A stretch of 64,000 bases of DNA, taken from Escherichia coli (lineage in GTDB: Bacteria; Pseudomonadota; Gammaproteobacteria; Enterobacterales; Enterobacteriaceae). This document shows positions 39,001 through 45,000 of this stretch, in pieces (within the stretch, counting starts at the first letter, position 1; every line of letters starts with the position of its first letter). A program made the position numbers. Where the stretch lies: assembly GCF_044647545.1 (NCBI RefSeq), contig NZ_CP172818.1, one strand, 5' to 3'.

Positions 39001-42000
39001 TACAGTGGTCATTTCAACTCTGATGACAATAGCAGGTTTAGGAACACTGACAGGTACAATATTTTTTGGTTTTGTTGGTGATAAGATTGGTGTAAAAAAA
39101 GCCTTTGTAGTCGGTCTAATAACTTCATTTATTTTCCTTTGTCCTCTTTTTTTTATTTCTGTGAAAAACTCTTCTCTTATAGGATTATGTCTCTTTGGAT
39201 TAATGTTTACAAATTTAGGTATTGCAGGGTTGGTTCCAAAATTTATATATGATTACTTTCCAACAAAATTAAGAGGATTAGGGACCGGTCTTATTTATAA
39301 CTTAGGGGCAACTGGAGGAATGGCCGCACCTGTATTAGCTACATACATTTCAGGATATTATGGCTTAGGTGTTTCATTATTCATTGTTACGGTTGCATTC
39401 TCTGCCTTATTAATTTTGTTAGTTGGTTTTGATATTCCAGGTAAAATTTATAAACTATCCGTGGCTAAATGATTGGAGGCTTTATGATTAATTATGGCGT
39501 TGTTGGTGTTGGATACTTTGGCGCTGAATTAGCTCGTTTTATGAATATGCATGATAATGCAAAAATTACATGTGTATACGATCCTGAAAATGGAGAAAAT
39601 ATTGCCCGTGAATTGCAGTGTATCAATATGTCAAGCTTGGATGCTTTAGTCTCAAGTAAATTAGTCGATTGCGTGATCGTAGCCACCCCAAATTATCTGC
39701 ATAAAGAACCAGTAATTAAAGCAGCAAAGAATAAGAAGCATGTTTTTTGTGAAAAACCAATTGCATTAAGTTATGAAGATTGTGTGGATATGGTCAAAGC
39801 GTGTAAAGAAGCTGGTGTGACCTTTATGGCCGGGCATATTATGAATTTTTTCAATGGGGTTCAATATGCACGGAAGTTAATTAAAGAAGGTGTTATCGGC
39901 GAAATATTATCATGTCATACTAAGAGAAATGGCTGGGAAAACAAACAAGAGAGACTTTCCTGGAAAAAGATGAAAGAACAATCTGGTGGACATCTATATC
40001 ATCATATACATGAGTTAGATTGTGTTCAGCATTTACTTGGAGAAATACCAGAGACGGTTACTATGATTGGTGGAAATTTGGCCCATTCTGGTCCAGGATT
40101 TGGCAATGAAGATGATATGTTATTTATGACCTTGGAATTCCCGTCAGGAAAACTAGCAACCTTAGAGTGGGGGAGTGCATTTAACTGGCCGGAACATTAT
40201 GTCATCATCAATGGAACTAAAGGCTCTATTAAAATTGATATGCAAGAAACAGCAGGGTCACTTAGGATTGGCGGTCAGACAAAGCATTTTTTGGTCCATG
40301 AAACACAAGAAGAAGATGATGATCGTCGGAAAGGCAATATGACCTCAGAAATGGATGGCGCTATAGCATATGGTCATCCAGGAAAAAAAACACCATTATG
40401 GCTTGCCAGTTTAATAAGAAAGGAGACGTTATTCCTCCATAATATCCTCTGTGGTGCAAAACCTGAAGAAGATTATATTGACCTTCTCAATGGTGAGGCG
40501 GCCATGTCGGCGATTGCTACTGCTGATGCTGCCACTCTTTCAAGATCGCAGGACAGGAAAGTGAAAATCAGTGAGATCATTAAACATACATCAGTAATGT
40601 AAAAACTATACGCCTCTTGATTTAATTCAGGAGGCCTTTTATGTATGATCAAGAATTTTATCTTCGATAATCTCATAATTTTAGCAGTGCCATTTATGAT
40701 AAAAACATCCCTTAAAACCAATCTAATCTTTTTCTTCCTCTGTGTATTTGTTCCCCATATGGCGTCATAATTTACGCTACGTAATACGGGATAGTTACGA
40801 TACGCAGCGATAGCGCTAAGTTTTAGTTAAAATCCCCCATCAGCGGGATATGGGGATCTCTGGGAGGTTCAGGTTTTAGCATCGCGACTTTAATACGACA
40901 GACGCTGGTGACGATGATGCCAAGTAGTGACTCTTCCGAATAAGGTTCCCACTGACCAATTGGCGCGCGCTTCGCAATAAAATCTCCCTTCGCCCAGTAT
41001 TGGGAAAAGTAGATACATTCAAACTGTGTACGCTGTTTCGTCTCACAGTTCACGACATTGCTGGCCGATGAGCTGACCATTGGGCCTATCCGGGCTGTCC
41101 CGATGGATATTACGCCGAAGTATGTGGGAATTGCCAGCGGATTGATGAACGCCGGTTCCGCTGTCGCCGACATTATTTCACCTATCGCCTTTGGCATTAT
41201 TATCGACAAAACAGGCAACTGGAGTTTACCATTCTACGGTTCCGTCGCATTGCTTGTTATTGGTATATTCCTGACGTTCTTCATGCGTCCAGATAAGTCA
41301 TTGTAAAAGTCGAATCAGGGCTGAAGTGGCACACTGAATTTGGCCACCTGAACAGAGGTGATATGCTCACCTCAGAACAACACAGGTGCTCCAATGAAAA
41401 AAAGAAATTTTAGCGCAGAGTTTAAACGCGAATCCACTCAACTAGTTGTTAACCAGAACTATACGGTGGCAGATACCGCCAAAGCTATGGATGTTGGCCT
41501 TTCCACAATGACAAGATAAGTCAAACAACTGCGTGATGAGCATCAGGGCAAAACACCAAAAGCCTCTCCGATAACACCAGAACAAATCGAAATACGTAAG
41601 CTGAGGAAAAAGCTACAACGCATTGAAATGGAGAATGAAATATTAAAAAAGGCTACTGTAGATTCAATCTGTCAATGCAACACCCCTTTCAATTATCTCT
41701 TTCGGTGTTTTGAACTTCAGTGTCTTTCTCGGTCTGTTGTTTAGCTGAGCAGCAACCAGATCTAGTTCATGTTGAGTATATTGGGCAAGACATGTCTTTT
41801 TAGGAATGTACTGCCGAATTAGCCCATTTGTGTTCTCATTTGTTCCCCGCTGCCAAGGACTCTGAGGATCGCAGAAGTAAACTTTAACGCCGGTGCTGAC
41901 AGTAAATTCTAGATGTCTGGCCAGTTCCATTCCTCTGTCCCATGTCAGTGATTTTCTGAGTTCTGACGGTAAACTCAGGAATTTGTCGGTAAGAGCCTGA

Positions 42001-45000
42001 TTTACTGAGACAGAATCTTTGCCCCTGAGTCTAAGGATGATCGTATAACGTGATTTTCGGTCTACAAGTGTGGCTATATGAGAGTTTTTTGTACCTGAGA
42101 CTAAATCGCCCTCCCAATGCCCTAGAGAGCGTCTGTTATCGATATTTCGGGAACGTTCGTGAATTGGTGTTCCGTTCACTATGTTAATCGTACCTCTTTC
42201 GCCTTTGCGGGTATGACGCCTGCCATGGCGAAGGCTATGCGACCGTCGCAGATGCTGTATATTCAGGTGGTGTAGCGCTTCACGGCTACGAAAGTACAGC
42301 GTTTTATAAATTGTCTCAGGTGATATTCGCAGCGTTTTTTGACGTGGTTTTGTTCGCCTTAACCATCCTGATATTTGCTCTGGAGACCATTTCATCTCCA
42401 GCTTTTCCAGAACAAGCTTTCGCAATGGTAAATTTTGATCCAGTAAGCACGGTTTTGGCCTTTTCGCCATTCTGTTGGCTCGGTTATTAGCATCAACAGC
42501 TTTGTAATAGCGTCTGCCCCGATTACGCTGAACTTCACGTGAGATCGTCGAAGGACTGCGATTCAGCGCAGTAGCTATCGCACGAATGCTCATTTTGGCT
42601 GACAAACCAGCTCGTATCTCCTCGCGCTCAGACAGTGTCAGGTGAGCTACAGCCCGCTTACGCTCATGGGGTTTTATGCCGCCAGTATCCCTTAACATAG
42701 TGAAGATCGTTCCGGGTTTTGAACCCAGGATATTCGCTATTTCACTGAAGCCTGTTCCGTTCTTCCATAGTTCAAAAACAGAGGCTTTTTCCTCTGCTGT
42801 AAATGTTCGTCTCATTCAAAAAACCTCCGCAACCCCATGTTTTCACATAACTGTTGCGTTGACCAATTGAATCTACAGTTGCTTTTTTTAATATATCTCG
42901 CTCAAGGCGAGCTTCATTTAACGCCTTACGCAGTTGCAGAATTTCAGATTCCAGTTCAGCCACCGTGCGGGAACCAGGAGTACCGAGCCCTTTTCTGGCG
43001 GCGGTAACCCATTGTCCTAAAGTGCCTTCAGGAAGAGATAATCGGGAAGCACCTTCACTGATCGAAAGTTGATTTTCAAGAACCGTTCTGACAGCTTCGG
43101 CTTTGAACTCTTTAGAGTAACGTTGGGTTTTTCTGCTCATTATTAGCTCCTTCTGATGCCATTCTATTTCAGGAAGGAGTGTCCGTTAAACTCAGGCTAC
43201 CTCAGGAAAAACCGTCCTGAAAAACCAGACGGCAGACGGGCTGTATTACGCAGTCAGGTACTTGAGCTACATGGCATCAGCCACGGTTCGGCCGGAGCAA
43301 GAAGCATCGCCACAATGGCAACCCGGAGAGGCTACCAGATGGGACGCTGGCTTGCTGGCAGGCTCATGAAAGAGCTGGGGCTGGTCAGCTGTCAGCAGCC
43401 GACTCACCGGTATAAACGTGGTGGTCATGAACATGTTGCTATCCCTAACTACCTTGAAAGGCAGTTCGCCGTGACCGAGCCAAATCAGGTGTGGTGCGGT
43501 GATGTGACCTATATCTGGACGGGTAAGCGCTGGGCGTACCTCGCCGTTGTTCTCGACCTGTTCGCAAGAAAACCAGTGGGCTGGGCCATGTCGTTCTCGC
43601 CGGACAGCAGGCTTACCATGAAAGCACTGGAAATGGCATGGGAAACCCGTGGTAAGCCCGTCGGGGTGATGTTCCAAGCGATCAAGGCAGTCATTATACG
43701 AGCAGGCAGTTCCGGCAGTTACTGTGCGATACCAGATCACGCAGAGTATGAGCCGGCGCGGAAACTGCTGGGATAACAGCCCAATGGAACGCTTCTTCAG
43801 GAGTCTGAAGAACGAATGGATGCCGGTGGTGGGTTACGTAAGCTTCAGCGAGGCAGCTCACGCCATAACGGACTATATCGTTGGATATTACAGCGCACTA
43901 AGACCGCACGAATATAATGGTGGGTTACCCCCAAACGAATCGGAAAATCGATACTGGAAAAACTCTAACGCGGTGGCCAGTTTTTGTTGACCACAACAGA
44001 CTACCTGAAGGGAGCCGCGGTCGCCTGGCAGTTGCAGTAGCAGGAGATCATCCAGCCGCAGTACAGGTCACGATGACTCTGGTTAATGATACCGGCTTTG
44101 ACCCCGTATTTTCCGGCTCTATCGCTGAATCATGGCGTCAGCAGCCGTGCACACCATCCTATTGTTGTGACTGGGAGGCTGCCACCATGCTTCGCGCTTT
44201 CCCTCTGGCGAAAAAGGGAGAAGGACGGGCCCGTCTGCCTTCACTTTATGCCAGCTTCGGTAAGCTGGGTGAGACACCGACTCATGAAGATATCATTGAT
44301 AACAATCGATCCATCAACTGGCCTGTATAACGTGGCTGCCGGTGATTAAGAAAGCTGCACCTACCTAAGTAGTAGCAAACGCACACTTTTTAGAAAAATC
44401 GATGGTCAGAAACTGGATTAGCAATTCCGTTCCATGGTTGCTTTTGATTTACGTTGGCGTCTGATCATTGATTTATCCTCAAAAGCCCAACCTCATTGGT
44501 AATGAACCAGCTCCGTGAATGTCCGCTCTGGCACAGAGCGAAATTTTTTGATCTCCCCCCTGAAATCTAAACTTAGTCATGTCACGTTTTTGGGTTTCTA
44601 AAATTTTAACTTCGCGTTTTTCGTTGCCGTAAGGGTTATACAGAAATGTCCGTTAAGCAGAGTTCAAAATTGATTGCCGTGATCACGACTGGTTTGAAAG
44701 CCGCGCCCAAGCCTGTACAGCTCTGGTTTGCGTTGATTATGAACCTGTCAGCCTAAAGCAAGCGGATGGACGATGAGTATTGGTAATCTTTCAGAGTCCG
44801 GAAAAGTTCAGCCCCAGTCTGAACAGGCTTGCTGGCGCCAGTCCAGTTTCATTCAGTCGTGGTTTGGTTCTTACGGCCTGTGCAATCTACCTCATTAGGC
44901 ACATCGGCCTGCCAGATACCGGCTCGGGGTGTATTTCCGCTTCCACGCTGAATACTGTTCTCAGCAATCCTGGGGTCATCACCTCTTCTGGTGTGCCTTG

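What the first reader, a model, noticed from the sequence alone, without database searches (positions are those of the whole stretch)
41322..43996. IS30 flanked by two inverted IS3-family orfA fragments cut at the homologous position
Left junction: IS911 orfA ends ...gaaatattaaaaaaggctac | IS30. Right junction, reverse-complemented: IS600-like orfA ends ...gatatattaaaaaaagcaac | IS30. Both orfA copies are truncated just after the KKAT codons, where I recall the IS3-family frameshift window to lie, and they face each other across the IS30. No 2-bp direct duplication flanks the IS30 (ac on the left, gt on the right, which are reverse complements). This pattern fits two independent IS30 insertions at a shared hot spot followed by inter-IS30 recombination and inversion, rather than a simple single insertion.
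Basis: partly seen in the sequence, partly recalled or inferred. Interest (0 to 1): 0.45.

Follow-up and report, generated by a model that had tools for sequence, protein, structure and literature searches.

The report
IS30 deletion joining two IS3-family hot spots
A complete IS30 sits between the front ends of two other insertion sequences (IS911 and IS600) because it targets the same short motif in both and a 4.4-kb deletion joined the two sites; this is the arrangement already annotated in E. coli K-12, so it is ordinary but instructive.

Summary
A complete 1221-bp IS30 (41657-42877, minus strand) lies between an IS911-like 5' part (41322-41656, +) and an inverted IS600 5' part (42878-43205, -). 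Both are cut three bases after the slippery heptamer. There is no 2-bp duplication (AC left, GT right).

The hot-spot idea is supported. Elsewhere IS30 sits as a simple insertion, with a 2-bp duplication, at exactly these dinucleotides in IS911 (both orientations; also in Yersinia) and in IS600. It also sits at the homologous site of at least four other IS3-family elements. A target model trained only on non-IS3 sites ranks each site first within its element.

The inversion idea is not supported. Other E. coli carry, at this locus, IS911 - DUF2254' - BCCT - IS600(inverted)::IS30 - 'IS911 - yjhV - fecE. The window is that arrangement minus 4,363 bp. K-12 MG1655 has no IS600 3' part near this site, so no reciprocal junction.

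An IS30 SNP ties the window's copy to the IS600-resident copies. Whether transposase or recombination between two IS30 copies made the deletion is unresolved. The same structure is in K-12 (387 of 5,426 genomes).

The parts
41322..41656 (+). IS911-like element, 5' part: left end (TGAAGTGG...) and orfA codons 1-87. orfA starts at 41394 and carries a premature TAA at 41517-41519. The part ends ...AAA AAG GCT AC.
   Evidence: 96-97% identical to IS911 copies in other loci. NCBIfam IS3 transposase profile positions 1-81.
41645..41651 (+). IS911 slippery heptamer A AAA AAG, in the orfA frame. It is followed by GCT and then the target dinucleotide AC (41655-41656).
   Evidence: Read directly, with the frame set from the ATG at 41394. 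That A6G is the IS911 -1 frameshift motif is from general knowledge.
41657..42877 (-). Complete IS30, 1221 bp. The right inverted repeat (IRR) is 41657-41682 and the left (IRL) is 42852-42877. The transposase ORF is 41664-42815, 383 aa, intact, with one substitution (F337I) relative to the K-12 copy.
   Evidence: NF033563 IS30 family transposase, 275.8 bits against a cut-off of 80. 99.9% identical to the K-12 copy.
42878..43205 (-). IS600 nt 1-328: left end (TGAGGTAGCC... on the minus strand, ending at 43205) through orfA codon 87 (ATG at 43140). On the IS600 strand it ends ...AAA AAA GCA AC. Positions 42878-42879 (GT) are the IS600 target dinucleotide.
   Evidence: 99.4% identical to annotated IS600. 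IS3 profile positions 1-81.
43206..43998 (+). IS911-like (PGAP: ISEc52-like) 3' part. It runs from element nt ~453 (GGAAAAACCGTCC...) to a degenerate right end (...GTTGACCACAACA). orfB is frameshifted. The last ~270 bp are mosaic relative to K-12.
   Evidence: IS3 profile positions 122-273.

Best explanation
The region is a nest of three insertion sequences left by an IS30-associated deletion.

SHOWN:
- IS30 prefers a near-palindromic target whose half-site is AAAAAAGGC-N followed by the 2-bp duplicated dinucleotide.
- The programmed-frameshift window of IS3-family elements (A AAA AAG/A GCN, encoding Lys-Lys-Ala) is such a half-site. IS911 and IS600 therefore each carry one strong IS30 hot spot, at the homologous position.
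- Other E. coli have, at this same locus, IS911(+) - DUF2254' - BCCT transporter - IS600(-) with IS30 inserted in its frameshift window - IS911 3' part - yjhV - fecE. The window equals that arrangement minus 4,363 bp: IS911 nt 336 to its end, DUF2254', BCCT and the IS600 3' part.
- The deletion runs from exactly the IRR tip of IS30 to exactly the IS911 hot-spot dinucleotide.
- The window's IS30 carries the derived allele (T at IS30 position 467) seen only in the IS600-resident copies at this locus.

INFERRED (favoured, about even odds):
- The IS30 resident in IS600 formed an active IR-IR junction, the known copy-out-paste-in intermediate.
- That junction attacked the IS911 hot spot 4.4 kb away in the same molecule.
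- This hot-spot-targeting reaction deletes the interval and leaves one IS30 between the old flank (GT side) and the new flank (AC side), hence no target duplication.

CONSEQUENCE: both IS3-family elements are decapitated at the orfA/orfB boundary and cannot make the OrfAB transposase.
For: Anatomy and junctions.

Simple insertions with 2-bp duplications at the same dinucleotides:
- IS911 GGCT[AC]|IS30|[AC]CGCG in L004, L006, L008 and L011.
- The opposite orientation in ECONIH1 (L013).
- Yersinia aleksiciae (L022).
- IS600 in L005, L007, L012 and L013, plus nine viral-contig copies.

Ancestral and intermediate arrangements at this locus. Deletion size.

IS30 SNP table: 467T is shared by the window, K-12 and L007/L012/L013b. 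It is C in every IS911-resident copy.

Target model trained on five non-IS3 sites:
- the true site ranks 1 of 1,224 positions in IS911 and 1 of 1,237 in canonical IS600;
- only 1-5 of 61,299 other window positions score as high.

At least four further IS3-family elements are hit at the end of orfA.

The IS30 mechanism (IR-IR junction, hot-spot targeting, deletions that start at the edge of an IR, 2-bp staggered attack) is taken from PMC9333248.
Against: - The product is identical whichever way the interval was lost, so the transposase step cannot be read from the sequence.
- The SNP argument rests on one or two sites. A second copy made by local hopping of the IS600-resident IS30 would carry the same alleles.
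- The published 24-bp consensus (Olasz et al. 1998) was not available to me. My half-site consensus is empirical, from about a dozen distinct sites.
- The window is not K-12 (about 2.5% divergent in the adjacent core), and its IS911 parts carry many private differences. An independent origin of its chimera cannot be strictly excluded.
Confidence: 0.5

Rival explanations
1. Two insertions, then loss of the interval. IS30 inserted separately into the IS600 window and into the IS911 window, in the same chromosomal orientation. The 4.4 kb between the two direct copies was then lost. The loss was either RecA-dependent homologous recombination or IS30's own site-specific dimerisation of the inner ends followed by dimer dissolution.
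For: - Both single-insertion states exist at this very locus in the required orientation: L011 (IS30 in IS911) and L007/L012 (IS30 in IS600).
- A doubly occupied locus exists (ECONIH1, L013), although there the two copies are inverted.
- Each junction in the window keeps its own copy of the respective duplicated dinucleotide (AC, GT), as this model predicts.
- PMC9333248 describes joining of the inverted repeats of two distant IS30 copies into a dimer, followed by dissolution.
Against: - No genome with two direct copies at this locus appeared among the best-ranked hits of the search designed to find IS30 in the left IS911 next to DUF2254' (40 of 7,009 matching records listed). Such an intermediate would be unstable.
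- The window's IS30 has the IS600-lineage alleles at positions 377 and 467 from the IS911 side. A crossover with an L011-type copy would therefore have to lie in the first 376 bp.
- That objection disappears if the second copy was a fresh copy of the first.
Confidence: 0.33
2. Same deletion, opposite polarity. IS30 was first in the IS911 window (the widespread IS911::IS30 form), and its IRL end was then joined to the IS600 hot spot, deleting rightwards.
For: - The IS911-5'|IS30 junction is present in 1,309 of 5,426 genomes, including CFT073, 042 and 55989.
- L011 shows this form in the ancestral arrangement at this locus.
Against: - All IS911-resident IS30 copies examined carry C at position 467. 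The window and K-12 carry T, like the IS600-resident copies at this locus.
- L011's IS600 already carries the IS30 excision footprint, so it is a later state.
Confidence: 0.1
3. One reading: two IS30 insertions in inverted orientation, followed by recombination that inverted the intervening segment and brought the two orfA fragments face to face.
For: - Inversion-type products do exist elsewhere. L042 has IS30 between two inverted IS600 5' parts.
- ECONIH1 has two inverted IS30 copies at this locus.
Against: - IS600 is already inverted, and its left end already abuts IS911 nt ~453 at the identical junction, in arrangements with no IS30 or one IS30.
- 4.36 kb present in those arrangements is absent here.
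- There is no second IS30 in the window.
- MG1655 has no IS600 sequence on the 3' side of this site anywhere in its chromosome.
- Inverting ECONIH1's interval would not give this structure.
Confidence: 0.02

Closest known systems
E. coli K-12 IS911B / IS30D / IS600 remnant upstream of yjhV-fecE. The gene names insN, insI, insM and insO are from my memory of the K-12 annotation. The structure itself is seen in NCM3722, MG1655, C600 and NEB10-beta.
   Same: Identical architecture and identical junction sequences. The same chromosomal flanks are 100% identical over 322 and 404 bp. IS30 is 99.9% identical.
   Different: - The window is not K-12. The adjacent core is about 2.5% divergent and the idn operon is absent.
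- Its IS911 parts differ at 31 positions, with an A6G run instead of A5G and a TGG-to-TAA stop.
- No E. coli complete genome matches its IS911 5' part better than 98.2%.
IS911 interrupted by IS30 at 5.8-6.1 min of the K-12 chromosome (PMC9333248, Fig 3 legend), and the widespread IS911::IS30 simple insertion.
   Same: IS30 at the same IS911 dinucleotide. The same left junction.
   Different: Those are simple insertions, with an AC duplication and IS911 continuing on the other side. Here the other side is IS600 and 4.4 kb is missing.
IS30 hot-spot-targeted intramolecular deletions and inversions generated by IR-IR junctions in plasmids and in the chromosome (Olasz, Kiss and colleagues; PMC9333248).
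   Same: The deletion starts exactly at an IS30 inverted-repeat tip and ends at a preferred target. One stable IS30 remains, and there is no duplication.
   Different: Those were observed in the laboratory. Here only the end product and natural sister states are seen, and transposase involvement is inferred.

Membership tests
IS30 (IS30 family) | An element of about 1.2 kb with imperfect 26-bp terminal inverted repeats beginning TGTAGATTCAAT. | tested here: met
   1221 bp. The inverted repeats match at 23 of 26 positions.
IS30 (IS30 family) | A single long ORF encoding an IS30-family DDE transposase. | tested here: met
   383-aa intact ORF. NF033563 scores 275.8 bits against a cut-off of 80.
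IS30 (IS30 family) | A 2-bp target duplication on simple insertion. | tested here: not met
   The window has AC on the left and GT on the right. The same element at the same sites elsewhere does have AC/AC and GT/GT. The absence here therefore marks a rearrangement, not a different element.
IS911 / IS3 family (left and right parts) | IS911 ends, orfA with an A AAA AAG slippery heptamer, and an orfB DDE domain. | tested here: met
   - 96-98% nucleotide identity to copies annotated IS911/ISEc52.
- The heptamer lies at 41645-41651, in frame.
- IS3 profile positions 1-81 and 122-273 are matched. The scores are below the whole-protein cut-off because these are fragments.
- Frameshifting itself was not tested.
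IS600 / IS3 family (minus-strand fragment) | IS600 left end and orfA. | tested here: met
   99.4% identical over 328 nt to PGAP-annotated IS600. IS3 profile positions 1-81 are matched.
IS30 natural hot-spot target | A near-palindromic target with insertion at the central 2 bp. | tested here: met
   An empirical half-site model from five non-IS3 sites ranks both sites first within their elements. Comparison with the published 24-bp consensus was not possible because the paper is not held.
IS30-mediated intramolecular deletion | One end point at the IS30 tip, the other at a hot spot, a single IS30 retained, and no duplication. | tested here: met
IS30-mediated intramolecular deletion | Dependence on IS30 transposase and an IR-IR junction rather than on host recombination. 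| not testable with these tools
   The product is the same under either route.

The most novel reading that the evidence does not exclude
The programmed-frameshift window of IS3-family elements (slippery A-run plus GCN) is, as a class, a natural hot spot for IS30 and its relatives, across genera. IS30-family elements would then systematically decapitate IS3-family elements at the orfA/orfB boundary. They would also use these dispersed, homologous sites as end points for deletions, inversions and chimeric junctions.
Probability: 0.45. Interest if true: 0.4.

Novelty: already known. Interest (0 to 1): 0.25.

Why it matters
The structure itself is a long-annotated feature of the K-12 chromosome, and hot-spot-targeted rearrangement by IS30 is established, so little changes.

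Three modest points add value:
- The motif that lets IS3-family elements make their transposase is also what makes them targets for IS30. This gives a concrete example of one insertion sequence inactivating others.
- Natural E. coli genomes preserve sister states at one locus: an unoccupied site bearing an excision scar, single occupancy at either site, double occupancy in inverted orientation, the deleted form and a tandemly duplicated form. No state with two direct copies was found.
- For annotation, an IS30 without a target duplication between two IS3-family orfA stubs should be read as a rearrangement scar, not as a simple insertion.

Tried and rejected
- Published IS30 consensus. I tried to retrieve it (Olasz 1998; J Bacteriol 1997, PMC179709). 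Neither is held, and other papers citing IS30 gave no sequence. I reconstructed the lambda hot spot LHS from coordinates in PMC9333248. The exact central dinucleotide is ambiguous from the text, and LHS scores only moderately in my model, so I did not use it as a test.
- Counting the chimeric type from the first broad search. This failed because single-junction types also pass 80% coverage. A synthetic query with the IS30 interior removed solved it.
- Strain War (L062). It looked like IS911 and IS600 stubs adjacent without IS30. It is simply an intact IS600 next to an intact IS911 and is irrelevant.
- A doubly occupied, direct-orientation intermediate at this locus. Among the 40 best-ranked hits (7,009 matching records), only one genome had IS30 in the left IS911 in the K-12 orientation; its IS600 carries no IS30. 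One further genome had the opposite orientation.
- Artificial changes. I considered that the window's divergent IS911 bases might be artificial. The whole window shows natural divergence from K-12, so they are more likely gene conversion from other IS911-like copies. No donor was found.
- Source genome. It was not identified.
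Full report
**What is in the window**

The stretch 41322-43998 lies between a truncated MFS gene downstream of nanX-nanY (yjhB-yjhC) and yjhV-fecEDCBA. It consists of four abutting pieces:
- An IS911-like 5' part, 41322-41656, plus strand. It runs from the left end through orfA codon 87.
- A complete IS30, 41657-42877, 1221 bp, with its transposase on the minus strand.
- IS600 nt 1-328, 42878-43205, minus strand. It runs from the left end through orfA codon 87.
- An IS911-like 3' part, 43206 to about 43998, plus strand, beginning at element nt ~453.

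NCBIfam supports these assignments. The IS30 transposase scores 275.8 bits against a cut-off of 80. Both orfA stubs align to positions 1-81 of the IS3 transposase profile, and the 3' part aligns to positions 122-273.

**Checking the observation**

The junctions read ...ATATTAAAAAAGGCTAC|TGTAGATTC... and ...GAATCTACA|GTTGCTTTTTTTAATATATC.... Read towards IS30, the two 20-nt flanks are 17/20 identical. In both elements the break follows the slippery heptamer (A AAA AAG in IS911, A AAA AAA in IS600), then three bases, then AC. No 2-bp direct repeat flanks IS30.

**The hot spot is real**

In other genomes IS30 sits at exactly these dinucleotides as a simple insertion with the expected 2-bp duplication:
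- GGCT[AC]|IS30|[AC]CGCG in IS911 (L004, L006, L008, L011).
- ACGCT[GT]|IS30|[GT]TGC in IS600, written in window orientation (L005, L007, L012, L013).

At least three insertions into the IS911 site are independent:
- the K-12 orientation;
- the opposite orientation in strain ECONIH1;
- a 93%-identical IS30 isoform in Yersinia aleksiciae.

I sampled full-length IS30 copies from species-representative genomes and viral contigs. This gave 19 distinct flank pairs. The bases next to the duplication form the half-site AAAAAAGGC-N, with N-GCCTTTTTT on the other side.

tblastn with the IS911 and IS600 OrfA proteins shows further IS3-family elements hit at the end of orfA:
- L060 (54% OrfA identity);
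- the L030/L056/L038/L026 element (33-34% identity), hit in both orientations;
- L021;
- the L017 element in Shewanella, hit by a 68%-identical IS30 relative.

I trained a position weight matrix on only the five sites that are not in IS3-family elements:
- It ranks the true dinucleotide 1 of 1,224 positions in IS911.
- It ranks the true dinucleotide 1 of 1,237 positions in canonical IS600.
- Only 1-5 of 61,299 other positions in the window score as high.

Hot-spot specificity of IS30, a 2-bp staggered attack and a nearly palindromic target are established (PMC9333248).

**What happened at this locus**

Other E. coli carry informative sister states at the same site:
- Strain ARL09/232 has one uninterrupted IS911-like element.
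- At least 1,008 genomes, including E. coli B and C, have IS911 - DUF2254' - BCCT transporter - IS600 (inverted) - IS911 3' part - yjhV - fecE. The IS600 left end abuts IS911 at the same junction as in the window.
- OkiPb01708 and SCAID WND2-2021 have that arrangement with IS30 inside IS600, in the window's position and orientation.
- CH4797 has IS30 in the left IS911 instead.
- ECONIH1 has both sites occupied, with the two IS30 copies inverted.

The window equals the IS600::IS30 arrangement minus 4,363 bp. The missing stretch runs from the IRR tip of IS30 to the IS911 hot-spot dinucleotide.

Among 13 variable IS30 positions, T at position 467 is shared only by the window, K-12 and the IS600-resident copies at this locus. 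Every IS911-resident copy has C. This ties the window's IS30 to the IS600-resident lineage.

**Inversion is not needed and is contradicted**

The inverted orientation of IS600 predates the event. 4.36 kb is missing. The window holds a single IS30. MG1655, with the same structure, shows only the IS600 5' stub and nothing from the 3' side of the site (row H354).

**How the deletion was made**

Two routes give the same product.
- Favoured, about 0.5. The resident IS30 formed an IR-IR junction that attacked the IS911 hot spot in cis. This is a reaction documented for IS30, in which deletions start at the edge of an inverted repeat (PMC9333248).
- Alternative, about 0.33. A second IS30 inserted into the IS911 window in direct orientation. 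The interval was then lost by homologous recombination, or by IS30 dimerisation and dissolution.

A rightward deletion from an IS911-resident copy is disfavoured by the SNP. The sequence cannot settle the choice between the first two routes.

**How common is it**

Junction counts among 5,426 complete E. coli genomes:

| Junction | Genomes |
|---|---|
| IS911-5'\|IS30 | 1,309 |
| IS30\|IS600-5' | 1,275 |
| IS30\|IS911-3' | 813 |
| IS600-3'\|IS30 | 1,086 |
| Both chimeric junctions on one IS30 | 387 |

The rows sampled for the chimeric type were all K-12 laboratory strains.

Other chimeric IS30 junctions without a duplication, joining IS3-family windows, recur in the sampled contigs:
- L035 has the same junctions as the window.
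- L041 has IS911-5'|IS30|IS600-3'.
- L042 has IS600-5'|IS30|inverted IS600-5'.
- L038 and L026 are further examples.

**Source of the window**

It is not K-12. The adjacent core (valS-lptG) is about 2.5% divergent, the idn operon is absent, and the leuX-proximal island is 99.7% identical to K-12. The source genome was not identified.

**Verdict**

The structure is the one already annotated in K-12 and is an instance of known IS30 behaviour. The generalisation that IS3-family frameshift windows are IS30 hot spots was not found in the searchable literature. The primary target-specificity paper could not be read, so I do not claim it as new.

Noticed in passing
L002 4996-5020 (E. coli B) and L011 11551-11575; corresponds to the site next to window 42878: The apparently intact IS600 of the E. 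coli B-type arrangement reads AAAAAAAGCAAC-TGTAGAT-TTTGCA. Canonical IS600 (L041) reads ...GCAAC-AGCGTAT-TTTGCA. TGTAGAT is the first 7 nt of the IS30 inverted repeat. The patch is exactly what a 1,223-bp deletion between two ATT microhomologies in IS600::IS30 would leave, so it looks like an IS30 excision footprint. This implies that the B-type IS600 once carried IS30. Roughly 14 of 60 evenly spaced hits carry the scar and 10 of 60 the canonical sequence.
   Followed up: partly
window 41411-41645 and 43725-43985: The IS911 parts carry clustered differences from K-12, B and all other copies. There are 11 substitutions plus one extra A in 335 bp on the left, mostly G-to-A, including TGG-to-TAA at 41517-41519. 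There are 19 substitutions plus a 1-nt gap in the last ~270 bp on the right. IS30, IS600 and the chromosomal flanks are nearly or fully identical. No complete E. coli genome matches the left part better than 98.2%. This is probably gene conversion from unseen IS911-like copies.
   Followed up: partly
L013 (E. coli ECONIH1) 5806-7026 and 11392-12612: Both hot spots are occupied at once. IS30 sits in IS911 in the orientation opposite to K-12, with the same AC duplication, and a second IS30 sits in IS600. The two copies are inverted relative to each other.
   Followed up: yes
L012 (E. coli SCAID WND2-2021) 2532-13256: There is a tandem duplication of a ~5.8-kb unit (IS911 3' part - DUF2254' - BCCT - IS600 3' - IS30 - IS600 5'). 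Presumably it arose by unequal exchange between the intact IS911 and the IS911 3' part.
   Followed up: no
L042 (viral contig IMGVR_UViG_2874956758_000002), IS30 at ~6182: IS30 is flanked on both sides by inverted IS600 5' parts (AC / GT, no duplication).
   Followed up: no
window 13425-13450: This is the best-scoring unoccupied IS30 target in the window under my empirical model: CTCAAAAAGGTA TT TTCGATTTTGAT, score 21.3, higher than the IS911 site.
   Followed up: no
window 18144-18416: A tandem array of about 15 copies of an 18-nt unit (CAGAAGTTAAATAATCTA and variants). Its gene context was not examined.
   Followed up: no
window 32267-32297 and 21747-32267: Relative to K-12 NCM3722, the window lacks the ~5.1 kb carrying idnR-idnT-idnO-idnD-idnK and lacks the IS1 in yjgN. 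The conserved core here is only 97.5% identical, against 99.7% for 34816-64000.
   Followed up: no
L002 4060-4075 and 5335-5337: IS600 in the B-type arrangement has no 3-bp target duplication. Its right-end flank is the region upstream of the BCCT gene, and its left-end flank is IS911 nt ~453. The B-type arrangement is therefore itself the product of an earlier IS600- or IS911-associated rearrangement.
   Followed up: no
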